From NCBI GenBank assembly GCA_963837945.1, contig CAWIQD010000024.1:11469-75468 (forward strand): a stretch of 64,000 nucleotides of DNA, written 5' to 3'. This DNA is from an uncultured Acidobacteriota bacterium. GTDB taxonomy: Bacteria > Acidobacteriota > Thermoanaerobaculia > Multivoradales > DATKCC01. The notes below the pieces were generated by a model. The model made no database searches. It was not told where the DNA came from and was given only the letters and a program-made list of their open reading frames with translations. How positions within the stretch are numbered: position 1 is the stretch's first letter; every line of letters begins with the position of its first letter. Positions 1 to 64,000 of this stretch are shown piece after piece. Both the position numbers and the translations under genes were made by a program.

Positions 1-23
1 GCCAAGGACTTGAGAGGGGTGGA

Positions 24-2621
24 GTGGAAATCGGCGAGGGACCCTTCGGGGGATTGCGACACGGAGCCGTCGGTCGTCGCATCACTGCCTACCTTCGTGG
101 AAATCGGCGAGGGACCCTTCGGGGGATTGCGACATGCATTGCAGTCGCATCAGCGTAGATCTGCTTCGCGTGGAAATCGGCGAGGGACCCTTCGGGGGAT
201 TGCGACACTTCAACTGCTGGCCGTTTGCACGCTTGGCCTCCGTCGGTGGAAATCGGCGAGGGACCCTTCGGGGGATTGCGACATGCGCGTACCATTAGTC
301 CTGGCGTCGGCGAGCTGCTCGGTGTGGAAATCGGCGAGGGACCCTTCGGGGGATTGCGACCGATCGAGCACCAGGTCGGCCGAGCTCCGCCAGGTCTGCT
401 CGGTGGAAATCGGCGAGGGACCCTTCGGGGGATTGCGACACGTTCAGCGCTCGGTCGTCGAACGCCCTCCGTGATCGTGGAAATCGGCGAGGGACCCTTC
501 GGGGGATTGCGACATCGTTCCGCCAGCGTCGCTGTGACCTGCTGCTCCGTGGAAATCGGCGAGGGACCCTTCGGGGGATTGCGACAGAGACGCGTGCATC
601 CGGCGAGCATCCGCCGCCTCGCGTGGAAATCGGCGAGGGACCCTTCGGGGGATTGCGACACAGCACGCGTCGGACTCTGCGCCCGCACGGCTGCGGTGGA
701 AATCGGCGAGGGACCCTTCGGGGGATTGCGACATCGGTGTACTGTCTGGCATCGATGCGTTACCTCCTGTCAGTGGAAATCGGCGAGGGACCCTTCGGGG
801 GATTGCGACACGACTTGCGGCCGACGGTGATCGCGACCAGTACCATCGAAGTGGAAATCGGCGAGGGACCCTTCGGGGGATTGCGACGCTCTAGAGCCGC
901 CGTGAACATCCGGCGGCTTCGGCCGCGTGGAAATCGGCGAGGGACCCTTCGGGGGATTGCGACATCTGACGTACTTTCGCGGCTATCGACGCACCTCATG
1001 GTGGAAATCGGCGAGGGACCCTTCGGGGGATTGCGACAGCTGCCCGTCGAGTCCGATGATGTCATGATCGAGCACCGTGGAAATCGGCGAGGGACCCTTC
1101 GGGGGATTGCGACTTCAGCAACGACCGCCGGCAGTTGTTCGGTCCTCATGTGGAAATCGGCGAGGGACCCTTCGGGGGATTGCGACATTTGACGAAGTCC
1201 AGACCTGTTTTATTCGCACCTCCGGCTCCAGTGGAAATCGGCGAGGGACCCTTCGGGGGATTGCGACATGCTTCGACGACGGCTTCGTGACAACCTCCTT
1301 CCTTGGTGGAAATCGGCGAGGGACCCTTCGGGGGATTGCGACGCTGCAGGTACTGAGTCGACGATGCATCGCATCCAGCGGTGGAAATCGGCGAGGGACC
1401 CTTCGGGGGATTGCGACATTCCGAAGTTCGCCGGGAACGCGGCAGCCGATCGCGTGGAAATCGGCGAGGGACCCTTCGGGGGATTGCGACATTTCGTGAC
1501 GCTGATCTCCGTCCGGAATGCATGATCTGAGTGGAAATCGGCGAGGGACCCTTCGGGGGATTGCGACTCGCAATTCCTCTGACGCTAGAACATCGCGAGG
1601 ATCGGCGTGGAAATCGGCGAGGGACCCTTCGGGGGATTGCGACGGCCGACGACGCACCATGATGCACTCGACCGGTGTCCTGTGGAAATCGGCGAGGGAC
1701 CCTTCGGGGGATTGCGACATTGCAGTCATGAAGATCATCGGCGACCTCCGTGTTGACTGTGGAAATCGGCGAGGGACCCTTCGGGGGATTGCGACCACAG
1801 AAATTGTCGTCGGGAACACCCACCGGATTGACGTGGAAATCGGCGAGGGACCCTTCGGGGGATTGCGACATGATGACGAGGATCGGGTGATAGCACCACC
1901 ATCATGACGTGGAAATCGGCGAGGGACCCTTCGGGGGATTGCGACATGAAACATCCTTCTTTCCCCCGACTGCCATGATTAGAGTGGAAATCGGCGAGGG
2001 ACCCTTCGGGGGATTGCGACATTGGGGCGACAATGGACTCGTCCATGTCGAAGTCAGAGGTGGAAATCGGCGAGGGACCCTTCGGGGGATTGCGACATCC
2101 GCTTGGTCCTGGCATGTTGCGTTGCTCCCTTCGTGGAAATCGGCGAGGGACCCTTCGGGGGATTGCGACATGTTGGTGCGGTCCATCGGAGTCTCCTTTA
2201 TCTGCCGTGGAAATCGGCGAGGGACCCTTCGGGGGATTGCGACATATACCCCCGCACGGAGTCAGTAACGTTGACCCCGTTAGTGGAAATCGGCGAGGGA
2301 CCCTTCGGGGGATTGCGACATCCGACGGTACCGAGATGAAGCCGGACATGGACGTCTCTGTGGAAATCGGCGAGGGACCCTTCGGGGGATTGCGACACTC
2401 GCGTACTGCCTTCGGGGTCCCCGATGGCGTACTGGTGGAAATCGGCGAGGGACCCTTCGGGGGATTGCGACACTGCGCGGAGAAGCTACTGCATAGCTTC
2501 CCTCCTTAGTCTGTGGAAATCGGCGAGGGACCCTTCGGGGGATTGCGACATCCCAGTCCACGCTGGGCACGCGACCGTCCGAGTGGGTGCAGATCGGCGA
2601 GGCACGTCCGCCGGACTTCGT
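24..2621 (+). CRISPR. CRISPR array 1: 34 copies of the 37-nt repeat GTGGAAATCGGCGAGGGACCCTTCGGGGGATTGCGAC with 33 spacers of 35-44 nt, followed by a degenerate terminal repeat at ~2584-2621
   Basis: I counted repeat ends directly at 60, 133, 206, ... 2549, giving a period of ~73-81 nt. The distal repeat GTGGGTGCAGATCGGCGAGGCACGTCC... is degenerate, which places the leader upstream at the window start. The leader-repeat junction CAAGGACTTGAGAGGGGTGGAG is also found in front of array 2. Confidence 0.95.
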
Positions 2622-2827
2622 TGCTCGTAGACAGGTGAGCCCGAGAGGTGGCGGACGGCGGGGCCCGGCCTCTGGCCTCGTGGCCTGGGTCGGGTCAGGT
2701 CAGGCCAGGTGCTGTCCTGACGGGGTGTTGGCAGATCGGCGGCTCTCGGGCGGCGGGGCAGAACCGGGCCGAGGCGCCGCTCCGGCGGCGGCTGGTCGCT
2801 CTCGAGACGGGTGAGCGCCCAAAGCGG

Positions 2828-3058
2828 CTACTCGCCGCCGCGCTTCCGGAGCTCTCGTCTCGCCGCCCGGATCAGGCGATCCCGCGACCACCCGGAGACG
2901 CTCAGGTCGGAGCGCTCCGCCGCTCGGCGCAGGAGCTCCAGGTCCGACTCCCTCATCCGCAGTCGAATCGCCGCCTCGAACCGCTCGGTGGGCCTCTTCT
3001 TGGGGCGAGCCATGGCCGGACTGTAGGCCGATACGATCAGCCCGTCAACCCTTGACAA
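2828..3058 (-). CDS. Small ribbon-helix-helix (RHH, CopG/MobC-like) DNA-binding protein; the alternative start at 3013 gives 61 aa
   Basis: The sequence ARPKKRPTERFEAAIRLRMRESDLELLRRAAERSDLSVSGWSRDRLIRAARREL shows the typical RHH beta-strand plus two helices pattern. Confidence 0.45.
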   Translation of the reverse strand: MSRVDGLIVSAYSPAMARPKKRPTERFEAAIRLRMRESDLELLRRAAERSDLSVSGWSRDRLIRAARRELRKRGGE

Positions 3059-4140
3059 AGGCTTGTTTTTCGGCCTACAATAACCAGATGGTCGATGACC
3101 TGATTCGGGGTGATGGCGCGGGGCGGGAAGGCGGCTCCGGGAGGACCTGTCCCGCGTGCGAGACCCCGGTGATCAAGTACGGCAAGACGGCCGCCGGGCG
3201 CCAGCGGTACTGGTGTCGGAGTTGCCGCAGCACCACGTCGGACGCCGCTCCTCGATCGCCGATCCATCCCATGCGGATTCCGCTCGAGCGCGCGGTGCTG
3301 TGCCTGCGGCTCCTGGTCGAGGGCAGCAGCATCCGGGCGGCCGAGCGGATCACCGGCACCCACCGGGACACGATCGGTCGGCTGCTGCTCCTGGCCGGGG
3401 GGCGGTGCGAGAGGCTCCTCGCCGAGCTGGTGACGGACGTCGAGGTCCACGACGTCGAGACCTCCGAGCTCTGGGCCTTCGTGGGGATGAAGGAGACGAC
3501 CCGGGAGCGGCTGGGCTTGGGCGACCCGCGGGTGGGCGACGCCTACGCGTTTCTCGCCATGGAGCGAGATTCGAAGCTGATCCTCGCCTGGCACCTGGGC
3601 CGGCGCACGGCCGAGCACACGGACGCGTTCGCCGAGAAGCTCGGCCGCGCGACCGCCGGCCGTTTCCAGCTCACGACCAGTGGGCTCGCGGCCTATCGCG
3701 AGGCCGTGAGCTTCCACTTGGGCGAACGCACGGACTACGCGACGCTGGTCAAGGAGGTCGGACCGGGGAAGGGCTCGGACGAGGGCCGCCGGCTGCCTCC
3801 GCGGATCGTGGGCGTGAAGAAGAACCGCGTCCATGGCGATCCGGATCCGGCGCGGGTTTGCACGTCTCACGCCGAGCGCGGAGCGCTGACGTTCCGGATG
3901 CAGTCGCGGCGCTTCACGCGGCGGACGAACGCCTTCTCGAAGTCTTGGAGGCACCACCGTGCGGCCCTGGCGCTCCAGCTCGCTCACTACAACCTCTGCT
4001 GGATGCACGCCTCCATCCGCATGACGCCGGCCATGAAGGCCGGGGTCGTCGGGAGGCCCTGGAAGCTTGAGGAGCTCCTGGCCGACGGGGGATCAGGGCC
4101 CGCGAGCGGGCTCTGATTTCGCCTCGTCGATTCCCGCGAG
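3030..4140 (+). mobile_element. IS1-family insertion sequence (boundaries approximate; imperfect terminal motif ATCAG(AG)CCCG near 3035 and 4120)
   Basis: A single fused InsAB-like transposase ORF. Weak terminal inverted similarity. No clear target-site duplication seen. Confidence 0.45.
3052..4116 (+). CDS. IS1-family transposase (fused InsA zinc-finger/HTH + InsB DDE domain)
   Basis: The N-terminal CPACETPVIKYGKTAAGRQRYWCRSCRST matches the IS1 InsA zinc ribbon (CPSC...NGKSTAGHQRYLCSHCR). The motif ELWAFVGMKE and the C-terminal RRTNAFSKS...HYNLCWMH match InsB motifs. Confidence 0.75.
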   Translation: MTKACFSAYNNQMVDDLIRGDGAGREGGSGRTCPACETPVIKYGKTAAGRQRYWCRSCRSTTSDAAPRSPIHPMRIPLERAVLCLRLLVEGSSIRAAERITGTHRDTIGRLLLLAGGRCERLLAELVTDVEVHDVETSELWAFVGMKETTRERLGLGDPRVGDAYAFLAMERDSKLILAWHLGRRTAEHTDAFAEKLGRATAGRFQLTTSGLAAYREAVSFHLGERTDYATLVKEVGPGKGSDEGRRLPPRIVGVKKNRVHGDPDPARVCTSHAERGALTFRMQSRRFTRRTNAFSKSWRHHRAALALQLAHYNLCWMHASIRMTPAMKAGVVGRPWKLEELLADGGSGPASGL

Positions 4141-4503
4141 CTCGCGGCACATTTTCCGGGCGAGCTCGTGGAGCTCCTGGGCGTAGCGAGCCGCGAAGGC
4201 GCGCAGCCGCGGGCTCGGGCTCCAGTGACCTCGCTGGTCACGCGGCTCGGCGAGCTCTCGGAGGTCTTCGACGCACGCCATCACGTCGGCGACGACCGCC
4301 TCGGTCCACGCGGCGTGCTCATCGCGGCTCGGATCGGGGCCGGTCTGCCAGGTATCCCAGCGCACGTAGTCGGCGAGGATCTTGCCGACCTGCTCGACGG
4401 CCCGCCGGTCGCTCGGGTCCTCGAAGCGCCAGAGGAGAGCCTGACGCATGGCGGTCGGCAGAGGCGGATAGGGCTCGCCCTCGTCATCGACGACCCGGAC
4501 CAT
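4093..4503 (-). CDS. Hypothetical protein (hypB), translationally coupled downstream of radC
   Basis: The start MVRVVDDEGEPY overlaps the radC stop (ATGA). No recognisable domain. Confidence 0.4.
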   Translation of the reverse strand: MVRVVDDEGEPYPPLPTAMRQALLWRFEDPSDRRAVEQVGKILADYVRWDTWQTGPDPSRDEHAAWTEAVVADVMACVEDLRELAEPRDQRGHWSPSPRLRAFAARYAQELHELARKMCRELAGIDEAKSEPARGP

Positions 4504-5225
4504 CACAACAGGCGCCTGTCCCGGAAGGAGGCCCAGCGCTGGGCGCCGCCGAGGATGATGTGGTCCGCGAGCCGGACTCCCACGGCCTCGCACGCCTCCG
4601 CCAGGCGCCGGGTGAAGCGGATGTCTTCTATGGTCGGGGACGGATCGCCCGACGGGTGCGTGTGGAAGACGACCACGCTCTCCGCCGCGCGGTCGAGGGC
4701 GAGAGCGATGATCTGGCGCGGCTCGACCGAGGCTCTCGTCAGCGTGCCGCGGAACAGCTCCGCCATGCCCACGAGCCGCCGCCGGGTGTCGAGGAAGAGG
4801 GCGCCCATCACCTCCTGGTCTCGGAGGACGTAGCGCAGCGCCAAGTAGCGGGCCACCTCGTCTGGCCGCCCCATGGGCTCTCGCTCGGGGACCTCGGCCC
4901 GGGCGAGGCGCCGGGCGAGCTCGAGCGCGGCGAGGACCGAGGCGGCCTTCACCTCGCCCAGGCCGCGGCGCTGGAGGGCCTCGGGGCGGATGCCCACCAG
5001 GCCGGGGAGCCCGGAGGTCTCCTCGAGGATCTCGCGGGCGAGCTCCAGGGAGCAGACGTCGCGCGAGCCGTGGCCCAGGACGAGGGCGAGCACTTCGGGG
5101 TCGGAAAGGGCTTCGCCACCGCTCCGAAGCAGGCGCTGGCGCGGGCGCTCGTCGGGGGGCATCTCCCGGATGAGGCTCGGGAGACCGCTTCTGGAGGGTC
5201 GGGCCCTGGGACGCCGGCGGGCCAT
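4503..5225 (-). CDS. radC: RadC-family JAB/MPN domain protein (UPF0758)
   Basis: Contains the JAMM motif HTHPSGDPSPTIEDIRFTRRL and the conserved RadC N-terminal helix-hairpin region (EVLALVLG). The true start is the internal Met at 5225; the 363-aa track ORF has a spurious N-terminal extension. Confidence 0.85.
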   Translation of the reverse strand: MARRRPRARPSRSGLPSLIREMPPDERPRQRLLRSGGEALSDPEVLALVLGHGSRDVCSLELAREILEETSGLPGLVGIRPEALQRRGLGEVKAASVLAALELARRLARAEVPEREPMGRPDEVARYLALRYVLRDQEVMGALFLDTRRRLVGMAELFRGTLTRASVEPRQIIALALDRAAESVVVFHTHPSGDPSPTIEDIRFTRRLAEACEAVGVRLADHIILGGAQRWASFRDRRLL

Positions 5226-5587
5226 CAGCCGTCCTCCCGGCCGTCGGCCCACTCGGCCCAGTCGGCGAAAGCCGCGGCGAAGTGGCGCTCCAGCTCTTCG
5301 GGCGTCCAGGCGAGGGCCCGGTCGGCGCCGGCGAAGGCGCTGTCCGAGCCCGGCGAGTCCGCCGAGTCCTCGGCGCCGTGGCCCACGACCCAGCAGCGGG
5401 TCGCCTCGGCCGCGAAGAGAATCCGGAAGCGCTCGCGGTCGCCGCCCTCGAGGCCCGTCTCGGCGGGCGGGAGGCAAGAGAGAGTCTCGGCCGCGAGGTG
5501 CAGAAGGCCGAGACCGATGGAGAGGGTGACCCGAAGCTCGTCGTTCGTCGGGTCGGCGGGCGCGATACGATCCCTCAAGCTGCTCAT
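5225..5587 (-). CDS. Hypothetical acidic protein (hypA), first gene of the hypA-radC-hypB operon
   Basis: GAGGAG ribosome-binding site 8 nt upstream of the ATG. Its stop overlaps the radC start (ATGA). No domain recognised. Confidence 0.35.
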   Translation of the reverse strand: MSSLRDRIAPADPTNDELRVTLSIGLGLLHLAAETLSCLPPAETGLEGGDRERFRILFAAEATRCWVVGHGAEDSADSPGSDSAFAGADRALAWTPEELERHFAAAFADWAEWADGREDG

Positions 5588-5982
5588 GAGGCACGCTCCT
5601 CGTGAGTGGTCAGGCCCGGCGGGTCGCTAGCGGCTTCCCGCCGGGCCGCTCCGTGGTTTCCGGGCTCGCATGGCCCCGGCTGTTCGGCCCAACCTACCCC
5701 GCCGTCAAGGCCCAGAGGTAGCCAACACGCCTTTGGGACAGCACTCCTCGTCGCAAGTAGTTGCTCGAAGGGTACGTCTTGCGCTAACCTCCGGGGAGGC
5801 CGAAAACGTGGGGAGGTTAGCGCAGACCCCGGAAAGCGTCGAAGCTCTTTGAAATCAGAGGGTTACCGAGATTCGTCCGGTTCTGGCCTCGCCGGTCTTG
5901 CCCCTCGCCGAGGCCCAGTCTGGGGAGGTTAGCGGAAATGGCCTTCCAACTCACTGAGCCACAAGGACTTGGGAGGGGTGGA
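5588..5982 (+). promoter_or_regulatory. Leader of CRISPR array 2; contains a hairpin GCGCTAACCTCC-N19-GGAGGTTAGCGC (~5781-5823) and a third copy of GGGGAGGTTAGCG at ~5931
   Basis: Non-coding region between the divergent hypA start and the first repeat. Its last 23 nt (CAAGGACTTGGGAGGGGTGGAG) are shared with the array 1 junction. Confidence 0.6.
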
Positions 5983-8900
5983 GTGGAAACCGGCGAGGAA
6001 CCTTTCGAGGGATTGCGACACGAGGCTGCCGAAGATGAGGGTGACTAAGCTCATGAGTGGAAACCGGCGAGGAACCTTTCGAGGGATTGCGACATTCTAC
6101 CGACTCTTTTCAGAGTCTAGGATTTCGCTGTGGAAACCGGCGAGGAACCTTTCGAGGGATTGCGACTGCTCGGAGACGGGATTCATGCACTCTTGCCCTC
6201 CGTGGAAACCGGCGAGGAACCTTTCGAGGGATTGCGACCATTGCGCGACTCCGGCCGCCGCTGTCAGGCTTTCGTGGAAACCGGCGAGGAACCTTTCGAG
6301 GGATTGCGACTACGTCCCTGGCCATCCCTCTCGGCGAACCTGTGGAAACCGGCGAGGAACCTTTCGAGGGATTGCGACCAGTGAGCGTCGACGTCATCCT
6401 TTCTCCGTGGAAACGCAGGTTTCGAGGTGGAAACCGGCGAGGAACCTTTCGAGGGATTGCGACATGTAGCGTGCCGACGATCGAGCTCAGTGCATAGCTC
6501 GGGTGGAAACCGGCGAGGAACCTTTCGAGGGATTGCGACATTGAACTGCGACTCGTCCGCACGAGTCATCTTCCGCTGTGGAAACCGGCGAGGAACCTTT
6601 CGAGGGATTGCGACATGTCTGGGCGTGACGGTCAATCTCCGACTCCTCCTCCGTGGAAACCGGCGAGGAACCTTTCGAGGGATTGCGACCATTGCTCGAT
6701 GCCGGCGTCGCTTTCCGAATTCGAGTGGAAACCGGCGAGGAACCTTTCGAGGGATTGCGACTGTACGACGCCGCGGCCGTTGGTCTCGGCGATCCGGGTG
6801 GAAACCGGCGAGGAACCTTTCGAGGGATTGCGACACTGAAACGTGTCGTCGAGGAATCGGCTATCCTCGCCTGGGTGGAAACCGGCGAGGAACCTTTCGA
6901 GGGATTGCGACATCTTCAGGACACGTCGCGTTCGTGAAGTCGTCGGCTCCTTGTGGAAACCGGCGAGGAACCTTTCGAGGGATTGCGACATGTCCGGAGT
7001 CGGTTCGAGGTCGGCATCGTCACCCTGCGTGGAAACCGGCGAGGAACCTTTCGAGGGATTGCGACATGTCGACTCCTGACCGGCTGACGGGCTGCGATAT
7101 CCTGGGTGGAAACCGGCGAGGAACCTTTCGAGGGATTGCGACGTGATGCACGTCGATCCGATGCAGTCACTGCCGTCTCCGGGGTGGAAACCGGCGAGGA
7201 ACCTTTCGAGGGATTGCGACATCGTCCGACAGGTCGCAGGGCGACTCGTTAGGTGGAAACCGGCGAGGAACCTTTCGAGGGATTGCGACATGTCGATTCC
7301 TGACTCGCTCCGGATGTCGTATGTCCTGTGGAAACCGGCGAGGAACCTTTCGAGGGATTGCGACATGAGAGTCTCCGCGCAGGATGCCGTCTCGTCGAGT
7401 GGAAACCGGCGAGGAACCTTTCGAGGGATTGCGACACTCGAACTCGTCGTCACAGGCCACTGGCGCGTGCTGTGGAAACCGGCGAGGAACCTTTCGAGGG
7501 ATTGCGACATCTCGACGGAACTTGCGCGATCCCGTCGATGCAGTGGAAACCGGCGAGGAACCTTTCGAGGGATTGCGACATCTCAGACGCTGCGTCGCTG
7601 GCATCGCTCGCTGCGTGGAAACCGGCGAGGAACCTTTCGAGGGATTGCGACATCTCGTGGCTTGCATGTCTTCCAATCCTGCTCGACGTGGAAACCGGCG
7701 AGGAACCTTTCGAGGGATTGCGACACTGGATGATCGCTTGTGTTCGTTGATCCTCGTCGAGGTGGAAACCGGCGAGGAACCTTTCGAGGGATTGCGACTT
7801 CAGCGAGGCTTCGCATGACTTAGCATCCTCCGGGTGGAAACCGGCGAGGAACCTTTCGAGGGATTGCGACATTTGCGGCTCCTGCCGAGAGCTCGTTACC
7901 CGAAGTGGAAACCGGCGAGGAACCTTTCGAGGGATTGCGACACTTGACGTGGTCAGGCCGCGAGTCGCCTACTGCGTGGAAACCGGCGAGGAACCTTTCG
8001 AGGGATTGCGACATCTCTGGCACCGCTCGGCGACGGCAGCTCCGTTCATGCGATACCTTGTGGAAACCGGCGAGGAACCTTTCGAGGGATTGCGACCCGA
8101 TGACTGCCAGAGTCTTCCAGAACATCTGCGTTCCGTGGAAACCGGCGAGGAACCTTTCGAGGGATTGCGACATGTCGTCCTGCGCCTGCGTCGGCTTAGT
8201 CGCAGTGTGGAAACCGGCGAGGAACCTTTCGAGGGATTGCGACATTCCGGGCAGTACGCTTTTCTCAGCCTCAACCTTGGGTGGAAACCGGCGAGGAACC
8301 TTTCGAGGGATTGCGACATCGCTCGAGTCGATTCATCTTGGCCTCCTTAAGTGGAAACCGGCGAGGAACCTTTCGAGGGATTGCGACATTCTACGATCCC
8401 GGCTCACTCTTACACGCCCTCCTGTGGAAACCGGCGAGGAACCTTTCGAGGGATTGCGACACGGTCGAGGTCTCGTCGGTGACATGGCCAGTTCTCCACG
8501 TGGAAACCGGCGAGGAACCTTTCGAGGGATTGCGACATACAGGAACTCCCTGTCGACGAGCATGGAGGTCCGAGTGGAAACCGGCGAGGAACCTTTCGAG
8601 GGATTGCGACATCCGAAGGACTGCCCTCGGCCGCGTCGTCGCTGTCTAAGTGGAAACCGGCGAGGAACCTTTCGAGGGATTGCGACACTTGCTGCTGCAC
8701 CCATGGTGCCGCAGCAGACCAGTCGGTGGAAACCGGCGAGGAACCTTTCGAGGGATTGCGACAGCTCTTCCGGGACGCATCCCGAGAAATTCCAACCGAT
8801 CGTGGAAACCGGCGAGGAACCTTTCGAGGGATTGCGACCTTACCTGGCGAAGCGGAGGCCATGCTCTGCGGTCGGGTGGAAACCGGCGAGGAACCTTTCG

Positions 8901-9584
8901 AGGGATTGCGACATTTTTTTCTGCCTCGAGAAGACAAGCGGCTTGCTGTGTGGAAACCGGCGAGGAACCTTTCGAGGGATTGCGACCGTTGTCTCCAACC
9001 GCTCTCCTCCACTCCGTCCACTGAGTGGAAACCGGCGAGGAACCTTTCGAGGGATTGCGACCCATTTCAAGAGAGACCAGTTGACACTGACCCCTCCCGT
9101 GGAAACCGGCGAGGAACCTTTCGAGGGATTGCGACACAATCGTGCGACGGAGAGATCGAAGTGGAGGACTTTCGCCGTGGAAACCGGCGAGGAACCTTTC
9201 GAGGGATTGCGACAGAGACTTGCAGGAATTGGATCATACCATCCTCCTTTTGGGTGGAAACCGGCGAGGAACCTTTCGAGGGATTGCGACTGGTCAGGGC
9301 CTAGGTAGCGGCCGTCGCCGTCGAAGTGGAAACCGGCGAGGAACCTTTCGAGGGATTGCGACAGCTCAACGATGAGTAGTTTCACGACGTCCTCCCGCGG
9401 TGGAAACCGGCGAGGAACCTTTCGAGGGATTGCGACATTGTGCCATCCGGGTGTAGTCCACGCCGTCGCCGGCGCTGGAAACCGGCGAGGAACCTTTCGA
9501 GGGATTGCGACGAGCGCTGGGCGAGCGGTCGATGGTTCCACGTCGAGGTGGAAACCGGCGAGGAACCTTTCGAGGGATTGCGAG
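5983..9584 (+). CRISPR. CRISPR array 2: 49 copies of the 37-nt repeat GTGGAAACCGGCGAGGAACCTTTCGAGGGATTGCGAC with spacers of ~31-43 nt; one 20-nt partial repeat at ~6407-6426; the penultimate repeat has G1->C and the last repeat ends GCGAG
   Basis: Direct counting of repeat ends (6019, 6093, ... 9511, 9584). The repeat differs from the array 1 repeat at 4 of 37 positions (8, 17, 21, 26). The same leader-repeat junction motif precedes it. Confidence 0.95.
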
Positions 9585-9746
9585 CGGTGAGGGTGAGCGC
9601 CGCGGCGCTCGCAGTGGTGATGACTGGCCGAGGCCCAGGAAGAGAAGGCGAGCGGAGCGGCGGTCCGACGCGCGTGGTTCGTTCAGCGTCGGAGCGGTTT
9701 TCGGGCGTTCTGGCGAGGCACAGCCGGATTCGAGGATGGAGCGCGG

Positions 9747-9913
9747 TGATTCCGCCGGCCTGGCGTGTACACCTCGTCTACGCCATTCTCGCCCTCGCCA
9801 GATACCTCCGCACCCTCGCGGCCCGCCGGGACTTCATTGCGGAGGCCCTGGACGACGAGACGCTGGTCCTCTTCGGCCGCACCCAGATGCGTCGCCTGGC
9901 GGGGGCCGGCTGA
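9747..9913 (+). pseudogene. Remnant / short paralog of the 3' end of the 10530..11105 gene (C-terminal peptide ...EALDDETLVLFGRTQMRRLAGAG)
   Basis: About 35 aa and ~130 nt, including the post-stop region, are homologous to the 3' end of the gene at 10530-11105. It lies immediately after the array 2 terminal repeat. Confidence 0.3.
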
Positions 9914-10041
9914 GCCCCTGCTCCCCGACCGGCCGGAACGGCTGATCCCGCCCCGGCCTTCACCATCTTCCCCGCATCGGGCGGGGAGGCGAGTCCATCT
10001 CCGCTCTGCTCGATCGGGCTCGTCCTGAAAGCTCTGGGACC

Positions 10042-11897: not shown

Positions 11898-14800
11898 TCA
11901 GAACGGGTTGCCGACGGCCAGGTAGAAGTGGAAGCGGGTGGTGGCGCCGGGGTCGGGGTCGAGCTGGTAGCCGAAGCCGGCGCGCACGGGGCCGATCGGC
12001 GAGACGTAGCGCACGGCGACTCCGACGCCGGTCTTGACGTCGCGCGGGTCGACGTCGCGCCAGTCGGGCCAGACGTTGCCCGCGTCCACCCACAGCACGC
12101 CGCCGACCGGCCCCCAGACCGGGAAGCGGTAGTCGAGGTTCGCGAGCAGCAGGCCGTTGCCGCCGCGGCCGCGGCCGTCGGCGAAGAGGGTCGTGCCCGG
12201 GATGCCGAGCTCGTCCTTGCCGTAGGCCCGGTGGCTGAAGTCGCCGCCGGCGAAGAAGCGCTCGTCGATCGGGATCTTCAGGTTCGGCGGCTCGGGGGGC
12301 TGCGGCGCGCCCGAGGGCGTGGTGGTGTTGTTCTTGGTCGCGTCGACGAGCGGCGCGATGGCGCCGAAGCGGATGCTCCCCGCCAGGTGCCCGAAGCCGA
12401 GCGGCAGGTAGCGGGTGTGCTGGAGGAAGGTCTTGAGGAAGTTCGCGTCGGTCAGCCCCGGGATCGGGAACGCCCACTGGAAGCGGGCGCTGGCGCTCCA
12501 GCCGCGGGTCGGGTCGATCGGGTCGTTGCGCCGGTCGACCAGGATGTTGGGGACGACCGAGGAGATGTGGATGTCCTGGTCGCGCCGCTCGATGATCTGG
12601 GTCGGGTCGGTGATCTGCTGGGAGGCGGCGACGGTCAGGGTGGAGTTGATGATCCGGTAGTCGAAGGCGAGGCCGTAGCGCCAGACGTCCTCCTGCTTGA
12701 CCGCCTCGGCCTGGGTGACGATCCGGTCGACGTCGTAGCTCGGCAGCTCCTCCTGCTGGAAGGCCACGTTGTAGACCAGCGGGATGTGCCAGCGGGTCAG
12801 GTCCGGCTGGTCGAGGGCGACCCGGGCGAGGCGCTCCTTCTGGCCGTAGCGCAGGTCGGTCTGGAGGGTGAAGGCGCGGCCGAAGAGGTTGCCCTGGCGG
12901 TAGCCGACGAGCCCGGCGAAGCCGGTGTCCGTGTCGTAGCCGAGGCCGTAGCTCACCCGCCGCGTGCGCCCCTCCTGGACCCGGATCACGACGTCGCGCT
13001 CCTGCTCGGAGAGGTCGGACGGCCCGAGCTCCACCTGGGCGCGCGAGAAGATCCCGAGGCCGTAGAGGTCGCGCTCCGCCTCGAGGAGCCGCGTCGGGCT
13101 GACCGGCTCGCCGGGGTCGAGGTCCACCGCGTGCTCGATCACGTCGTCGTCGGTCTTGACGTTGCCCCGGACGATCACCCGGTCGACCCGGGTCTGCGGC
13201 CCCTCGATCACCTGGATCGTCAGGTCGACCAGGCTGTGGTCGGCGTTCCAGGTCTCGGTCGAGGAGACCTGGGTCGAGAGGTATCCCTTCTCCTCGTAGC
13301 GCCCGCGGATCTGGCGCAGGCTGTCCTCGAGCAGGAGCGGATGGAACGGCCCGCCGGCGTGGAGCGGCAGGTCCTTGCGCAGGTCGTCCTCCGAGAGCGC
13401 CTCGACGCCCTGGAAGGAGAGGTCGACCAGCTGGCGGCGCATCCCCTCCTCGATCGGCACCCTGAGCGTCAGGTTGCGGCCGTCGGCCTGGACGTCCGGC
13501 GGGCCGACCTTGTAGCTGGCGTACCCCTGGAGGGCGTAGAAGGAGCGCACGTTTTCGAGGTCGTCCTGGAGCACCGCGTCGACCAGCTTGCCGCTGCCCA
13601 GGGTGAGGAGTCGCTTGGGCTTGGTCTCCATGAGCTCGGCGAGCTTGCCGTCGCTCACCTGCCGGTTGCCGTCGAAGCGGATCTCCTGGAGGGTGTAGAC
13701 CGGGCCGGGCTCGACCCGGAAGGTGAGCCGGAGCGCGCCGTCCGCCGTCGTCTCGTCCCAGGTGACCGCGACCTTCCAGTGCCCCTTCTCCTGGTAGTAG
13801 CGCTTGACCCGGTCGGCCGCCTGGAGCACCAGCGCCTCGTCGTAGCCGTCCTCGCCGAGGAACGGCAGCAGGTCGTTTTTCTCGAGCTCCTTGCGCGCGA
13901 CGCCCACGATCTCCACCGTCACCAGCGGGCCGAGGGTCACCGGGTAGGCGAGGTCGACCCGGTGGCCCTCGCGGTCCTGGGTCTCCTTGGCCTCGCCGAC
14001 CTGCGCCTTGCGGTACTTCTGCTTGACCAGCCAGGCCTGGAGGCGCTCGGCGTCGTCGTCGACGGTGTCGCGGAGGTAGGGCTCGCCGGGGCGGGCGCGG
14101 AGCTGCTCGACGAGGGTCGCGGGCCGGAACGAGCCCAGCTCGCCCTCGAAGCTCACCGTGCCGATCGTCGAGCGCGCTCCGGCCGCGACCTCGAAGGTCA
14201 CCACCGAGCGCTTGGTCTCGTCGTTCGTGTCGACGGCGAGGTGGACCCGGGCGGAGAAGTAGCCGCGCTTCTCGAACAGGTCCTGGAGGCGGTAGACGCT
14301 CCTGAGCAGCCGGCTCTCGATCAACGGCTGGCCGGCGGCGACCAGCAGCTCGCTCTCGAGGTCGTGGCGGTCGAGCTTGCCGGTCTCGCCCACGACCGAG
14401 ACCTCGTCGACCTGCACCGCGGCCCAGACCGCCACCACCACGACCACCTGCTCGGCCGCCGGGTCGGAATCGACCGGCACGGCGGGCGGCGCGAGCCGCT
14501 CGCCCGGCTCGGCGGGACGGGTGTAGAGCTCCACCTCGTAGGCCGCGCCGGTCGCCTGGAGGTTGCGCAGGGTCCGGCGCACCCCGCGGTCGGTGAGCCG
14601 CGTGCCCGGCTCGATCGCGATCAGCTGGCGCAGCTCGCCGGCCGGCCCGAGCGGGGCGTCGCTTCGCACCTCGATGCGGGCGACGACCGGCCCGCGGCCG
14701 GCGACCGGCCCGGGCAGCGCCGGCGGCGCCTCGTCCCCCGCCACGACCACGTCGGGCGGCTCGACGGTCTCGACCGGCGGCTCGCGGGGCGGGATCGCCG

Positions 14801-15011
14801 GGCCCTCGACCGTCGTCGCGTCCTCGGGAGAGAGGACCGGGGCCGGCTCGGGCGCCGGCGGCGGCGCCTGGTCCTGGGTCGGATCGGGGGCCTGAGCCCG
14901 GGCCTGATCCTGGTCCTGGCCCCGGGCCGGGGCGCCCGCCAGCAGCAGCGCGGCGAGGAGCCCGGGAGCCGAGCTCCGGAGCAGGAGCCGGAGTGCGCCG
15001 CGCGCCGTCAT
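11898..15011 (-). CDS. tamA: Omp85-family outer membrane protein TamA/BamA-like, with a POTRA region, a long Pro/Ala/Gln-rich N-terminal linker and a C-terminal beta-barrel ending VGNPF
   Basis: POTRA-like repeats and the surface-antigen barrel motifs (RVSYGLGYDTDTG...GFGYQLDP). The start ATG overlaps the tamB stop (ATGA). Confidence 0.75.
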   Translation of the reverse strand: MTARGALRLLLRSSAPGLLAALLLAGAPARGQDQDQARAQAPDPTQDQAPPPAPEPAPVLSPEDATTVEGPAIPPREPPVETVEPPDVVVAGDEAPPALPGPVAGRGPVVARIEVRSDAPLGPAGELRQLIAIEPGTRLTDRGVRRTLRNLQATGAAYEVELYTRPAEPGERLAPPAVPVDSDPAAEQVVVVVAVWAAVQVDEVSVVGETGKLDRHDLESELLVAAGQPLIESRLLRSVYRLQDLFEKRGYFSARVHLAVDTNDETKRSVVTFEVAAGARSTIGTVSFEGELGSFRPATLVEQLRARPGEPYLRDTVDDDAERLQAWLVKQKYRKAQVGEAKETQDREGHRVDLAYPVTLGPLVTVEIVGVARKELEKNDLLPFLGEDGYDEALVLQAADRVKRYYQEKGHWKVAVTWDETTADGALRLTFRVEPGPVYTLQEIRFDGNRQVSDGKLAELMETKPKRLLTLGSGKLVDAVLQDDLENVRSFYALQGYASYKVGPPDVQADGRNLTLRVPIEEGMRRQLVDLSFQGVEALSEDDLRKDLPLHAGGPFHPLLLEDSLRQIRGRYEEKGYLSTQVSSTETWNADHSLVDLTIQVIEGPQTRVDRVIVRGNVKTDDDVIEHAVDLDPGEPVSPTRLLEAERDLYGLGIFSRAQVELGPSDLSEQERDVVIRVQEGRTRRVSYGLGYDTDTGFAGLVGYRQGNLFGRAFTLQTDLRYGQKERLARVALDQPDLTRWHIPLVYNVAFQQEELPSYDVDRIVTQAEAVKQEDVWRYGLAFDYRIINSTLTVAASQQITDPTQIIERRDQDIHISSVVPNILVDRRNDPIDPTRGWSASARFQWAFPIPGLTDANFLKTFLQHTRYLPLGFGHLAGSIRFGAIAPLVDATKNNTTTPSGAPQPPEPPNLKIPIDERFFAGGDFSHRAYGKDELGIPGTTLFADGRGRGGNGLLLANLDYRFPVWGPVGGVLWVDAGNVWPDWRDVDPRDVKTGVGVAVRYVSPIGPVRAGFGYQLDPDPGATTRFHFYLAVGNPF

Positions 15012-44569: not shown

Positions 44570-46824
44570 TCCGGGCCGCTTCGCCAGGCGCCAGGAGCCT
44601 GCGCGGCAGAGGTCCAGGGCCGCGCAGGCTCCTGGTGCTCGGCCTTCTGGTGGCAGCGTGCGCCGGCGCCTGGGCTTGTGACGGCGCTCCGGCCGCGAGC
44701 GGGGAGAGCTCCGCCGGCCCCTCGGGGACCTCCGGGGCGGCGACCTCGACACCGGCGAGCTCGCAGCCGGCGCCCCCCGCGGCTCGCCGGGAGACGCCGG
44801 CTGCCGCCACGCAACCCGCCGAGCCGGTGGCGAACGTCCTCCTGATCACGATCGATACCCTGAGGGCCGACTCCCTCGGTTTCTCGAGCCATGGCCGGGT
44901 CAAGACGCCGACCATCGACCGGCTGGCCGCCACGGGGAGCGCCTTCGCCGACGCCCACGCCCAGAACGTCGTCACCCTGCCCTCCCACACGAACATCCTG
45001 ACCGGTCTCTACCCGTACCAGCACGGCGTGCGCGACAACCAGGGGTTCGTCTTGAGCGCGGACGTCCCGACCTTGGCCACCCGTCTCCACCAGGCCGGCT
45101 TCGCGACCGCCGCGGTCGTCGGCGCCTTCCCCCTCGATGGCCGCTTCGGTCTCGGCCGCGGCTTCGATCTCTACGACGACCAGTACGGCGAGGGCGCCGA
45201 GGAGGACCAGTTCCGCGAGCTCCAGCGGCCGGGCGACGAGGTGGTGGCGCGCGGCGAGGCCTGGTGGCAGGCGCACCGCGGCGCGCGACGATTTCTCTGG
45301 ATCCACCTCTACGACGCCCACACTCCCTACGATCCCCCCGAGCCGTACGCGTCGCGCTACGCCGACAACCCCTACCTCGGCGAGGTCGCCGCCATCGACC
45401 ATTACCTCACCCCGTTCCTGCAGCCGTTCCTGGAGGGCCGGGAGGAACCGACGCTGATCGTCTTCACCGGCGATCACGGCGAGGGCCTCGGGGACCACGG
45501 GGAGGAGAGCCACGGTCTCTTCGCCTACGAGCCTACACTCCACATTCCCCTCGTCCTCTGGGGACCGGGCATCGCCGCCGGCGCCTCCGACCGGCCGGCG
45601 CGGCACGTCGACATCGTCCCCACGGTCCTCGACGCCCTCGGCCTGCCGGAGCCCAAGGACCTCCCGGGGAGCTCGCTGCTTCGGCCGCCGCCCCCGGATC
45701 CGGCCCGAAACGCCTCCTACTTCGAGGCCCTCTCGGCCAACCTGAACCGGGGCTGGGCGCCCCTGCGGGGCGTCATCGCGGAAGGGTACAAGCTCGTCGT
45801 GCTGCCGATCCCGGAGCTCTACGACCTCCACAAGGATCCCGAGGAGACGCACAACCTCTTCGCGACCGACAGCCGGCACGCTCACGAGCTGGCCCGGCTG
45901 TTGCCGGCCGAGTCGGTCTGGCCGCCGCGCCAGGGACAGGTCTCGGACCAGGAGGCCGCGGCCCTTCAGAGCTTGGGCTACCTCTCGGGCAAGGTCCGGC
46001 GCAAGTCGACGTACACGGCGGCGGACGATCCCAAGAACCTGGTCGGGGTCGACCAGGACTTCCACCGCTTCATCGACCTGTTCCAGAAGCGCCAGTGGCA
46101 GGAGGCGACGGCCCTCATCCAGAAGATCGTGGCGGTCCAGCCCGACATGGGGATCGGCTACAACTACTACGCCCAGGTCCTCCTTTCCCAGGGCATGGAC
46201 CGGAAGGCGCTCGAGGTCCTGGCGCGGGCTCACGAGCGCGGGGTGGCGACCCAATCGGCGGAGCGCCAGTACGGGTTGCTCCTGGCGGAGCTCGGCCGGC
46301 CCGAAGAGGGGGTGGAGATCCTCCGGCCGCTGGCGGCTTCCGGGGATCCCGATACTCTGAACGCCCTGGGGGTGGCGCTCCTCGCCGCCGGCCACGGGGA
46401 CGAGGCGAAAGCCGCGTTCAACGACGTCTTCGCCCACGACCCGCGCAACCCCGGCGCCCACCAGAACCTCGCCTTCGCCGCCCTGAAGACCCAGGACTGG
46501 CCGACCGCCGAGAGCGAGGCACGCAAGGCCCTCGCCCTCAACGAGAACCTGCCCCGGTGCTGGAACTTCCTGGGCGTCGCCCTCTTCAACCTCGGCCGGG
46601 TCCACGACAGCCTCGACGCCTGGGACCGGGCGGCCACGCTCCAGCCGCGCAACCCGGACCTCTTGTTCAACCTGGGCCTGGTGGCCTCCCAGGCCGGCGA
46701 GACCGCGCGCGCCAGAAAGGCCCTCGAACAGTTCCTCGCCGTCGCTCCGCCCGAGCAATACGGCCCGGACCGGGCCAAGGTCCGGGCCCTCCTGCGCAAG
46801 CTCGGATCAGAACCCGGCTCGTGA
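44566..46824 (+). CDS. Sulfatase-like (PF00884, alkaline-phosphatase superfamily) hydrolase/transferase fused to a C-terminal TPR domain, paralog 1; Thr in place of the sulfatase Cys/Ser (TLPSH)
   Basis: LLITIDTLRADSLGF...NVVTLPSHTNILTG...FTGDHGEGLGDHGE motifs. Lipoprotein-like signal (VAACAG). Start overlaps the previous stop. Confidence 0.6.
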   Translation: MIRAASPGARSLRGRGPGPRRLLVLGLLVAACAGAWACDGAPAASGESSAGPSGTSGAATSTPASSQPAPPAARRETPAAATQPAEPVANVLLITIDTLRADSLGFSSHGRVKTPTIDRLAATGSAFADAHAQNVVTLPSHTNILTGLYPYQHGVRDNQGFVLSADVPTLATRLHQAGFATAAVVGAFPLDGRFGLGRGFDLYDDQYGEGAEEDQFRELQRPGDEVVARGEAWWQAHRGARRFLWIHLYDAHTPYDPPEPYASRYADNPYLGEVAAIDHYLTPFLQPFLEGREEPTLIVFTGDHGEGLGDHGEESHGLFAYEPTLHIPLVLWGPGIAAGASDRPARHVDIVPTVLDALGLPEPKDLPGSSLLRPPPPDPARNASYFEALSANLNRGWAPLRGVIAEGYKLVVLPIPELYDLHKDPEETHNLFATDSRHAHELARLLPAESVWPPRQGQVSDQEAAALQSLGYLSGKVRRKSTYTAADDPKNLVGVDQDFHRFIDLFQKRQWQEATALIQKIVAVQPDMGIGYNYYAQVLLSQGMDRKALEVLARAHERGVATQSAERQYGLLLAELGRPEEGVEILRPLAASGDPDTLNALGVALLAAGHGDEAKAAFNDVFAHDPRNPGAHQNLAFAALKTQDWPTAESEARKALALNENLPRCWNFLGVALFNLGRVHDSLDAWDRAATLQPRNPDLLFNLGLVASQAGETARARKALEQFLAVAPPEQYGPDRAKVRALLRKLGSEPGS

Positions 46825-55202: not shown

Positions 55203-55219
55203 TACCATCCCGAGCCGTG

Positions 55220-63792: not shown

Positions 63793-64000
63793 GAGCCTCC
63801 CCCGTCGAGGGCGTCGAGGGCCCGGCGGAACCACTCGCTGCCGAGCTCGACGTAGTGGCTGGCGCCCGGGATCTGGACGTAGGTCACGTGCTCGAAGCCT
63901 TCCTTCTCCATCGCCCGGTAGGTCGCGCCGGTCTGCAGGCGGTTGAAGTCGACCTCGCCGGTCACCAGGACGAAACGGCTCGCGCGGCGCAGCCGGTCGA
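63789..64000 (-). CDS. 3' end of a gene extending beyond the window (possible alpha/beta-hydrolase-like C-terminus)
   Basis: ...FVLVTGEVDFNRLQTGATYRAMEKEGFEHVTYVQIPGASHYVELGSEWFRRALDALDGGGS stop. Confidence 0.3.
   Translation of the reverse strand, partial: DRLRRASRFVLVTGEVDFNRLQTGATYRAMEKEGFEHVTYVQIPGASHYVELGSEWFRRALDALDGGGS

What the first reader, a model, noticed from the sequence alone, without database searches (positions are those of the whole stretch)
61..9547. Strong 5' A / AT bias at the first positions of spacers in both arrays
Counting the dinucleotide immediately following GCGAC across 82 spacers, about 74% begin with A and about 50% with AT. Five array-2 spacers begin ATGTC. In a ~70% GC genome, A is expected at roughly 15% and AT at roughly 2%. 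The possible explanations are:
- the functional repeat is really 38 nt (...GCGACA)
- a PAM-derived nucleotide is co-integrated during adaptation, as with the last G of the E. coli I-E repeat
- a spacer-side sequence preference of the integrase
Basis: seen in the sequence. Interest (0 to 1): 0.6.

Follow-up and report, generated by a model that had tools for sequence, protein, structure and literature searches.

The report
A–pyrimidine start of CRISPR spacers
Spacers in two CRISPR arrays of an RNA-targeting (type III-B) immune system almost always begin with A followed by T or C; this looks like a signature of how spacers are captured, and could not be tied to viral targets because none were found.

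Summary
Of 82 spacers, 61 (74%) start with A and 41 (50%) with AT (p about 1e-30). Position 2 after A is T 40, C 15, G 5, never A.

It is not a 38th repeat base. All 83 repeat copies are identical, and the A is absent from a quarter of spacers. The arrays read on the + strand and belong to a Thermoanaerobaculia type III-B (Cmr) family; the window holds no cas genes.

The same bias recurs in independent arrays with this repeat in other contigs (27/44 and 7/16). It is absent from Cmr relatives that share the 8-nt tag ATTGCGAC but have a different repeat body (3/18). This points to spacer capture or integration rather than the effector.

A sister genome carries RT–Cas1–Cas2 next to an array with a homologous leader. 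That array has a different end bias (T–pyrimidine).

No protospacer was found, so "PAM-derived" and "integrase preference" cannot be separated.

Two further results:
- About a quarter of spacers are antisense copies of ribosome-binding site plus start codon.
- Colinear spacers differ 13% between genomes whose flanks differ 0–2%.

The parts
1..23 (+). Last 23 nt of the array-1 leader. The window starts just upstream of the first repeat.
   Evidence: GCCAAGGACTTGAGAGGGGTGGA matches the last bases of the array-2 leader and of the L016 leader.
24..2549 (+). CRISPR array 1: 34 identical 37-nt repeats (variant r1) and 33 spacers of 35-44 nt.
   Evidence: A first in 26/33 and AT in 17/33.
2550..2625 (+). 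Last spacer of array 1 (2550-2582, begins AT), followed by a degenerate terminal repeat (from 2583).
   Evidence: Sequence read. GTGGGTGCAGATCGGCGAGGCACGTCC... is a decayed repeat copy.
5588..5982 (+). Leader of array 2.
   Evidence: 383/383 identical to the sister MAG. Shares blocks at fixed distances with the leader of the array next to RT-Cas1-Cas2 (L026).
5983..9584 (+). CRISPR array 2: 49 repeats (variant r2, 4 differences from r1) and 48 spacers of 31-48 nt. The last two repeats each carry one change.
   Evidence: A first in 34/48 and AT in 23/48. Trailer units 38-48 are shared with L023.
4503..5587 (-). RadC-like gene (4503-5225) and a 120-aa ORF (5225-5587). They are conserved neighbours of the array-2 leader and are context, not part of the motif.
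   Evidence: NCBIfam RadC hit. 100% and 98% amino-acid identity to the MAG. Same order in L013 and L023.

Best explanation
Both arrays are genuine CRISPR arrays transcribed on the + strand. They belong to a Thermoanaerobaculia type III-B (Cmr) system whose crRNAs carry the 8-nt tag AUUGCGAC.

The A at spacer position 1, followed by a pyrimidine, is a spacer-end motif. I think it is written when spacers are cut and joined to the leader-distal (spacer-side) end of the repeat. In the complementary strand, whose 3'-OH is joined there, prespacers ending in purine-T (or purine-U) would be preferred.

The enzyme acts in trans, because these arrays have no adaptation genes beside them. The best candidate is an RT-Cas1-Cas2 module of the kind found in the sister genome, next to an array with a homologous leader.

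Shown:
- The bias is real.
- It sits at one spacer end only.
- It recurs in independent arrays of this repeat family.
- It is absent from the related Cmr arrays with the same tag.
- An RT-Cas1-Cas2 with a matching leader type exists in the sister genome.

Inferred:
- The bias arises at adaptation.
- That class of module loads these arrays.
- The A-Y is copied from the target rather than added.
For: - One-ended bias: position 1 A 74% and position 2 pyrimidine 79%, but no bias at the last two spacer positions.
- Recurrence in arrays with the same repeat and unrelated spacers: L023 units 1-44 have A in 27/44 (p 3e-11); L016 has A in 7/16 and AT in 5/16 (p 2e-4). Pooled over 151 independent spacers: A 97, AT 61, AC 28, AG 8, AA 0.
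- Not imposed by the tag or effector: two Cmr loci with 65-67% identical Cmr4 and the same ATTGCGAC tag, but a different repeat body, give A in 3/9 and 0/9.
- Independent of the ribosome-binding-site bias: L016 has no such signal (0/16) yet keeps the AT bias. Spacers that look like translation initiation regions start with A as often as the rest (14/21).
- Non-A spacers look like shifted versions. 44 of 54 start with a pyrimidine. In 5 of 6 homologous pairs where one member lacks A, the other is 1-3 nt longer at the 5' end and starts with A (W5/M5, W37/M32, W36/M31, W3/M3, L10/M6).
- No cas1, cas2 or cas6 lies within 10 kb of these arrays in four contigs.
- The sister MAG carries RT-Cas1-Cas2 240 kb away, next to an array whose repeat shares the last 11 nt and whose leader aligns block by block with the r1/r2 leaders. 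That array also has a 5'-end bias.
- Precedent: the last repeat base is PAM-derived in types I-E and I-C, and type III arrays without their own cas1-cas2 usually carry imported PAMs (PMC8482600).
Against: - No protospacer was found, so it is not shown that the A-Y is templated or what flanks it.
- The array next to the RT-Cas1-Cas2 has a different end bias (T first in 15/29, T-pyrimidine in 13/29) and longer spacers (41 nt). One enzyme with one fixed preference cannot explain both arrays.
- The window itself shows no adaptation genes, and its genome could not be searched.
- Published type III-A and RT-Cas1 adaptation studies report no end motif (PMC8860593, PMC13575424, PMC10828431).
- Natural arrays are filtered by selection, so a bias seen in them need not arise at capture.
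- The relatives without the bias contribute only 18 spacers.
Confidence: 0.5

Rival explanations
1. The motif is what remains of a PAM read by a type I-like Cas4-Cas1-Cas2 module acting in trans. The full motif would be something like TTC|AY, with the C coinciding with the last repeat base and the next bases kept inside the spacer.
For: The repeat ends in GAC. Vink et al. report that -3 G and -2 A in a repeat go with T and T/C in the PAM, that the -1 C of I-C repeats matches TTC PAMs, and that 95% of type III repeat clusters without their own cas1-cas2 carry a PAM (PMC8482600). Five of the nine spacers with A at position 2 start with CA, as a 1-nt slip would give.
Against: No type I gene or Cas4 was seen in any related locus. 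The only adaptation module found in the sister genome is RT-Cas1-Cas2. PAMs normally lie outside the spacer. No protospacer is available.
Confidence: 0.15
2. Selection after capture: the Cmr complex or crRNA metabolism works better when the guide starts with A-U or A-C. Only such spacers would be retained.
For: In Thermus Cmr, pairing of guide nucleotides 1-5 is what switches on Cas10 signalling (PMC8376896), so the first guide bases do matter functionally.
Against: Cmr relatives with the same tag show no A bias (3/18). In homologous spacer pairs the A is conserved no better than other positions (17 of 25 pairs, against 79% overall identity). No base-specific contact at guide position 1 is known to me (from memory).
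Confidence: 0.12
3. Start-codon anchoring: the last repeat base C plus AT or AC spells CAT or CAC, the complement of ATG or GTG. Spacers would tend to end exactly at a start codon of the target mRNA.
For: The T:C:G ratio at position 2 (61:28:8 pooled) resembles ATG:GTG:other start usage (my own knowledge). Nine spacers (for example A2_15, 18, 19, 26, 30, 35, 40) have an anti-Shine-Dalgarno 4-mer at the right spacing. There is a small cluster of such motifs 6-10 nt from the 5' end.
Against: Nine observed against 6.2 +/- 2.3 in shuffles, which is not significant. Spacers with a clear internal start codon also begin with A (14/21). L016 keeps the AT bias with no ribosome-binding-site signal.
Confidence: 0.1
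4. The A (or AT) is added without a template during integration or gap repair, for example by a polymerase or reverse transcriptase.
For: The bias is confined to the first one or two bases at one junction.
Against: Homologous spacers that start at the same homologous position share longer 5' strings (ATC in A1_10, 13 and 28; ATGTCGA in A2_15 and 18). Where a homologue is shorter, the missing bases differ from case to case. Position 4 is also biased (T 33/81).
Confidence: 0.05
5. The functional repeat is 38 nt, ending in ...GCGACA.
For: A is the commonest base after the repeat.
Against: There are 0 changes in 83 x 37 repeat bases, against 26% non-A at the next position. The figure is 39-56% non-A in other arrays of the family. 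Both terminal units show the same behaviour.
Confidence: 0.02

Closest known systems
Type I-E AAG PAM, whose G becomes the last repeat base, and type I-C TTC, whose C matches the last repeat base
   Same: A nucleotide signature of protospacer selection is visible at the repeat-spacer junction on the PAM-proximal (crRNA 5') side and at one spacer end only (PMC8482600).
   Different: There the retained base is counted as part of the repeat and is invariant. Here the signature lies inside the spacer, is 64-74% penetrant, extends to position 2 (pyrimidine), and occurs in arrays serving a type III-B system.
Type III arrays loaded in trans by another system's adaptation module
   Same: The arrays lie next to Cmr genes (in relatives) without their own cas1-cas2 and show a capture-related sequence signature (PMC8482600).
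   Different: The known cases borrow type I modules and show flanking PAMs. Here the only module found in the sister genome is RT-Cas1-Cas2 of a second type III locus, and the flanks are unknown.
RT-Cas1-Cas2 adaptation (Fusicatenibacter saccharivorans, Marinomonas mediterranea, Vibrio vulnificus)
   Same: F. saccharivorans spacers are about 39 bp, A+T-rich, come mostly from near start and stop codons, and favour the antisense orientation (PMC10828431). The window's spacers are about 37.5 nt, have 61% G+C in a 70.6% G+C window, are enriched for start-codon regions, and are antisense for those.
   Different: Those studies report no PAM-like or end motif. The RT here is a separate gene, not a fusion. 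Its link to these arrays is inferred from leader homology only.
Type III-A adaptation hotspots just downstream of early phage promoters (Streptococcus thermophilus)
   Same: Non-random type III spacer choice at transcript 5' regions, with translation lowering uptake. Natural spacers are strongly strand-biased (PMC13575424).
   Different: No sequence motif was found within 8 nt of protospacers there (PMC8860593). That system is III-A with its own Cas1-Cas2.
Thermus thermophilus Cmr (type III-B)
   Same: The seed lies towards the 3' part of the guide (nucleotides about 19-29), and the Cas10-activating region is guide nucleotides 1-5 (PMC8376896). The identical 8-nt tag AUUGCGAC is from memory and was not checked.
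   Different: No first-base preference or ribosome-binding-site targeting is described for it.

Membership tests
CRISPR array (class 1) | Identical direct repeats of 24-40 nt separated by unique spacers of similar length | tested here: met
   34 and 49 copies of a 37-nt repeat; 81 unique spacers of 31-48 nt.
CRISPR array (class 1) | A conserved leader on one side, decayed repeat(s) on the other, and older units shared between strains at the trailer end | tested here: met
   Leader ends match each other. Terminal repeats are mutated or degenerate. Window units 38-48 equal L023 units 45-55, while the leader-end units differ. One exception: against the MAG, the leader-end units are the shared ones.
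Type III-B (Cmr) CRISPR-Cas locus | cmr1-cmr6 with cas10 adjacent to the array | tested here: inconclusive
   Not in the window: no cas gene in 64 kb. Present next to the same arrays in relatives: Cmr1, Cas10, Cmr3-6 and SAVED in L013 and L016.
Type III-B (Cmr) CRISPR-Cas locus | Repeat ends in an 8-nt crRNA tag of the ATTGAAAG/ATTGCGAC kind, and crRNAs are complementary to transcripts | tested here: met
   The repeat ends in ATTGCGAC. Anti-Shine-Dalgarno plus start-codon patterns occur in 21 spacers on the crRNA strand and 6 on the other. Processing itself is not testable here.
PAM-derived junction nucleotide (as in I-E and I-C) | The junction bases are present in the protospacer or its flank in register | not testable with these tools
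   No protospacer was found: 8 viral-contig scans, phage BLAST, plasmid BLAST, and all held loci.
PAM-derived junction nucleotide (as in I-E and I-C) | A PAM-reading adaptation module (Cas4, or Cas1 with a PAM pocket) is present in the genome | tested here: inconclusive
   None was seen in about 200 kb of related loci.
RT-assisted (RNA) spacer acquisition | A reverse transcriptase fused to or adjacent to cas1-cas2 | tested here: inconclusive
   RVT_1-Cas1-Cas2 is present in the sister MAG (L026) and in L025. None is in the window or beside r1/r2 arrays.
RT-assisted (RNA) spacer acquisition | Spacers derive from RNA (for example exon junctions, or only transcribed strands before selection) | not testable with these tools
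   This needs acquisition assays or mapped protospacers.
38-nt repeat | Position 38 is as invariant as the other repeat positions | tested here: not met
   A in 74% against 100% identity at the other 37 positions.

The most novel reading that the evidence does not exclude
The spacers are copies of ribosome-binding-site RNA. Under this reading, an RT-linked Cas1-Cas2 captures roughly 37-nt mRNA pieces centred on the start codon, on average from about 17 nt upstream to +21. From my own knowledge, that is about the stretch an initiating ribosome protects; I did not check this against the literature. The module would join the RNA's 3' end (...purine-U) to the spacer-side end of the repeat. That single step would fix the antisense orientation and leave A-pyrimidine as the first spacer bases. 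The guide's 3' seed would then pair with the Shine-Dalgarno sequence.
Probability: 0.12. Interest if true: 0.85.

Novelty: new variant of a known kind. Interest (0 to 1): 0.55.

Why it matters
Type III systems are usually described as capturing spacers without any sequence motif. How they end up with guides that match transcripts is an open question.

Here a natural type III-B array family shows three things together:
- a strong one-ended motif inside the spacer;
- enrichment for ribosome-binding site plus start codon in the antisense orientation;
- an RT–Cas1–Cas2 with a matching leader in the sister genome.

If the motif marks the end that is joined at the spacer side, it gives a handle on how orientation and substrate (RNA or DNA) are chosen. 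That could be tested directly with the cloned module.

Practically, a known first-base rule would help define repeat boundaries and array orientation in metagenomes. It would also help in searching for protospacers.

Tried and rejected
- **Protospacer searches.** All negative. I ran all 81 spacers against INPHARED phages and both arrays against PLSDB plasmids. I ran eight exact or wobble-degenerate patterns against IMG/VR. I also ran all 240 spacers against every locus held and the masked window.
- **Repeat scans.** Scans of genome and metagenome collections gave only two MAGs and two tiny contigs.
- **Source contig.** Exact-protein look-ups did not find the window's own contig.
- **IS1-like gene at 3052-4116.** It carries a precomputed 'Cas1 (weak)' label in L023. 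Pfam and NCBIfam give InsA zinc ribbon and IS1 transposase, not Cas1.
- **Terminal start-codon idea.** Not significant.
- **Codon-period test on differences between homologous spacers.** No signal (p 0.6).
- **Anti-Shine-Dalgarno bases in homologous pairs.** They are not better conserved than other positions.
- **In-frame stops after putative starts.** Not depleted: 4/33 against 3 and 3 in the other frames. This fits about one third of these calls being false positives.
- **Host-codon strand classifier.** Uninformative on spacers (43 sense, 38 antisense), because the targets are about 60% G+C.
- **Repeat folding.** No better than shuffles. No Rfam family matched.
- **Cas6 search.** It did not place a Cas6 on the MAG's main contig among the top 120 hits.
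Full report
**Observation**

Array 1 is 34 perfect copies of GTGGAAATCGGCGAGGGACCCTTCGGGGGATTGCGAC (24-2549). It is followed by one more spacer (2550-2582) and a decayed repeat. Array 2 is 49 copies of GTGGAAACCGGCGAGGAACCTTTCGAGGGATTGCGAC (5983-9584), and only its last two copies carry one change each.

For the 81 spacers between full repeats, position 1 is A 60, C 9, G 5, T 7. Position 2 is T 44, C 20, G 11, A 6. After an A the next base is T 40, C 15, G 5, A 0. Position 4 is T in 33. ATGTC occurs five times, all in array 2.

Spacer interiors are A 0.16 and T 0.22, giving binomial p of 3e-30 (A) and 1e-35 (AT). The last two spacer positions are unbiased.

**Orientation and system**

Window bases 1-23 match the last bases of the array-2 leader and of a leader in another contig. 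Array 1 is therefore complete, and its leader lies just off the window. Three features fix the + strand as the transcribed one:
- the leader position;
- the terminal decayed or mutated repeats;
- the ATTGCGAC repeat end.

The window has no cas genes. Between the arrays lie an IS1-like gene (3052-4116) and a RadC-like gene (4503-5225, minus strand). The rest is housekeeping: BamA, TamB, NAD kinase, RNase Y, YmdB, TonB-type receptor, and sulfatase-TPR paralogues.

A scan of one genome per species with the repeat core found two MAGs, an uncultured Acidobacteriota and a Thermoanaerobaculia. In the first (contig_14864, loci L001, L003, L013) the array-2 homologue follows RadC. It is preceded by ECF sigma and anti-sigma genes, CHAT-SAVED, Cmr1, Cas10, Cmr3-6 and a SAVED protein. 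A third contig (L016; Cmr4 83% identical) has Cmr1-6, SAVED and mCpol, then an array with the array-1 repeat.

This is a type III-B family. No cas1, cas2 or cas6 lies within 10 kb of these arrays in four contigs.

**Is the A part of the repeat?**

No. The repeat has no change in 83 copies, while the next base is non-A in 26% of cases. Other arrays with the same repeat have A in 44-61%. Homologous spacers carry different sequence after the A.

**Does the bias follow the effector or the array family?**

Independent arrays with the same repeat show it:
- L023 (contig_19565, 55 repeats): units 1-44, which share only a few diverged homologues with the window's spacers, have A in 27/44, AT 13, AC 12 (p 3e-11).
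- L016: 16 spacers unrelated to the window's have A in 7, AT in 5 (p 2e-4).
- Two small metagenome contigs: 4 of 5 start with A.
- Pooled over 151 independent spacers: A 97, AT 61, AC 28, AG 8, AA 0.

Two more distant Cmr loci have Cmr4 65-67% identical and repeats ending in the same GGGATTGCGAC but with a different body. They show A in 3/9 and 0/9.

The bias therefore tracks the repeat/leader family, and hence whatever loads it, rather than the tag or the Cmr complex. The caveat is that the comparison rests on 18 spacers.

**Non-A spacers**

These look like shifted versions of A-starting spacers. 44 of 54 begin with a pyrimidine, which is the normal position-2 base. In five of six homologous pairs where one member lacks the A, the other is 1-3 nt longer at the 5' end and starts with A. 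This also argues that the A-Y is copied sequence rather than an added base.

**Candidate machinery**

A Cas6 of the family found in L017 sits in L025 next to a small array with the same tag and next to RVT_1-Cas1-Cas2. Searching with that Cas1 found a 67% identical Cas1 on the sister MAG's main contig.

That locus (L026), 240 kb from the Cmr locus, holds a second type III gene set. It is followed by RT (9036-10019), Cas1, Cas2 and a 31-repeat array (GTCGGAATTGCCCTGATCAGCACGGAGGGATTGCGAC). Its leader aligns with the r1/r2 leaders in blocks at conserved distances: AGCTCTTTGA[A/C]ATCAG near -140, AGGTTA..CGGAAA, and AAGGACTT near -20. An integrase of this kind is thus a plausible loader of the window's arrays.

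However, its own 29 spacers average 41 nt and start with T in 15 (p 1e-4), and with T-pyrimidine in 13 (p 1e-6). A 5'-end bias is therefore not unique to the window's arrays, but its identity differs. Either different enzymes are involved or the junction preference depends on the repeat.

**Literature**

- S. thermophilus type III-A acquires spacers with no motif within 8 nt (PMC8860593). It favours DNA just downstream of early promoters, and translation lowers uptake (PMC13575424).
- Type III repeat clusters lacking cas1-cas2 carry imported PAMs in 95% of cases. The last repeat base is PAM-derived in I-E and probably in I-C (PMC8482600).
- F. saccharivorans RT-Cas1-Cas2 gives spacers of about 39 bp that are A+T-rich, lie near start and stop codons, and are antisense-biased, with no PAM (PMC10828431).
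- I found no report of a spacer-internal A-pyrimidine start in the four literature searches made.

**Second finding: ribosome-binding sites**

Read as antisense, 21 of 81 window spacers contain GGAG, GAGG or AGGA followed 4-10 nt later by ATG or GTG. Shuffles give 5.5 +/- 2.2, and the opposite strand gives 6. The same enrichment holds in L023 (9/44 against 2.8) and the MAG (8/39 against 2.3), but not in L016 or L026.

Anti-Shine-Dalgarno 4-mers number 151 on the crRNA strand and 54 on the other. They pile up at 70-90% of spacer length (KS p 1e-11). The 33 pooled cases include 17 +/- 5.5 nt upstream of the start and reach +21 +/- 5.7.

In Thermus Cmr the target-binding seed is in the 3' part of the guide (PMC8376896). 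Here that part would pair with the Shine-Dalgarno stretch. Whether this reflects capture (promoter-proximal or RNA-derived) or selection for accessible targets is open. About a third of these calls are expected to be false positives.

**Third finding: array evolution**

Window array 2 and the MAG array are colinear. Units 1-5 match units 1-5, and window units 12-37 match MAG units 6-32. The paired spacers differ at 132 of 1023 aligned bases, plus 106 gap columns, and individual pairs range from 0 to 30%.

The flanks are nearly identical:
- leader: 0/383;
- trailer: 19/944;
- four-fold sites of RadC, orf120, orf191 and Uma2: 0-3.7%.

Divergence rises to 12-20% only inside bamA, beyond about 13.2 kb. 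The spacer substitution spectrum is flat (43 transitions, 89 transversions) and shows no codon period.

The window's trailer units 38-48 are absent from the MAG. They equal L023 units 45-55 with zero substitutions and six 1-nt indels. Several spacers also have diverged homologues within and between arrays: units 3-5 against 9-11 of array 2; A1_10, 13 and 28; A1_14, A1_18, A2_16 and MAG unit 10.

Three readings remain open:
- recombination mosaics of old array haplotypes;
- repeated capture from hotspot sites of related invaders;
- consensus errors in mixed-strain long-read assemblies.

**Verdict**

The 38-nt repeat idea is wrong. The bias most likely arises at adaptation. Separating a PAM remnant from an integrase or RNA-end preference needs protospacers or an acquisition assay.

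Noticed in passing
window 61-9547 (spacers); also L023 and L013 arrays: About a quarter of spacers are antisense copies of Shine-Dalgarno plus start codon (21/81 against 5.5 in shuffles). The anti-SD stretch lies 5-12 nt from the spacer 3' end, and the spacer 5' end lies at about +21 of the ORF.
   Followed up: yes
window 5983-9584 vs L013 15541-18475: The arrays are colinear, but homologous spacers differ 13% plus many indels. Meanwhile the repeats are identical, the leader is 0/383 different and the trailer 2%. The substitution spectrum is flat. The cause could be mosaic recombination, hotspot re-capture or an assembly artefact.
   Followed up: partly
window 8763-9584 vs L023 (minus strand) units 45-55: Eleven trailer units are shared with a second contig from the MAG's sample. 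There are no substitutions but six single-base indels, all in spacers. This suggests consensus errors in one assembly, or real indels.
   Followed up: partly
window 6167-6341 vs 6615-6797; A1 spacers 10, 13 and 28; A1_14, A1_18 and A2_16: Diverged homologous spacers occur within and between the two arrays. They include a three-unit block (units 3-5 resemble units 9-11 of array 2).
   Followed up: partly
window about 12200-13200 (inside bamA, 11898-15011, minus strand): Identity to the sister MAG drops from about 99% to 80-88% within the gene. This looks like a recombination breakpoint, and it implies that the CRISPR island (RadC to Uma2) was shared recently between diverged genomes.
   Followed up: partly
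window 3052-4116 (+): An IS1-like gene (InsA zinc ribbon, weak DDE_Tnp_IS1) sits between array 1 and RadC. The same neighbourhood is seen in L023 and L004, where a precomputed label calls it weak Cas1. That label is not supported.
   Followed up: partly
L026 9036-14494 (MAG contig_14864, 698-719 kb): A second type III locus with separate RT, Cas1 and Cas2 genes and a 31-repeat array. Its spacers start with T-pyrimidine (13/29) and average 41 nt. One unit holds a 646-nt insertion.
   Followed up: partly
L013 3647-5671 and 1979-3435; L019 1289-4926: A CHAT-SAVED protease next to an ECF sigma factor and zf-HC2 anti-sigma gene lies upstream of cmr1. From my own knowledge, this resembles known cOA-activated protease/sigma signalling modules.
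   Followed up: no
L013 7054-8767: The cas10/cmr2 gene call is broken in the MAG (a 206-aa palm2 fragment plus an antisense ORF). Relatives have 541-574-aa Cas10 proteins. This could be a frameshift or an assembly error.
   Followed up: no
window repeats, positions 8, 17, 21 and 26: The two repeat variants differ at four positions. C21/G26 against T21/A26 could be a compensatory pair in a CCC-UUCG-GGG hairpin, but the predicted folding is no better than shuffles.
   Followed up: partly
window 44827-49019, 55199-57238, 61678-63834: Four paralogous genes encode an N-terminal sulfatase domain fused to C-terminal TPR repeats. They are interspersed with glycosyl- and mannosyltransferase-like genes.
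   Followed up: no
L023 (minus strand) unit 8 and unit 27: Unit 8 carries a Shine-Dalgarno plus ATG in the sense orientation, an exception to the antisense rule. Unit 27 is a 291-nt insert in the array.
   Followed up: no
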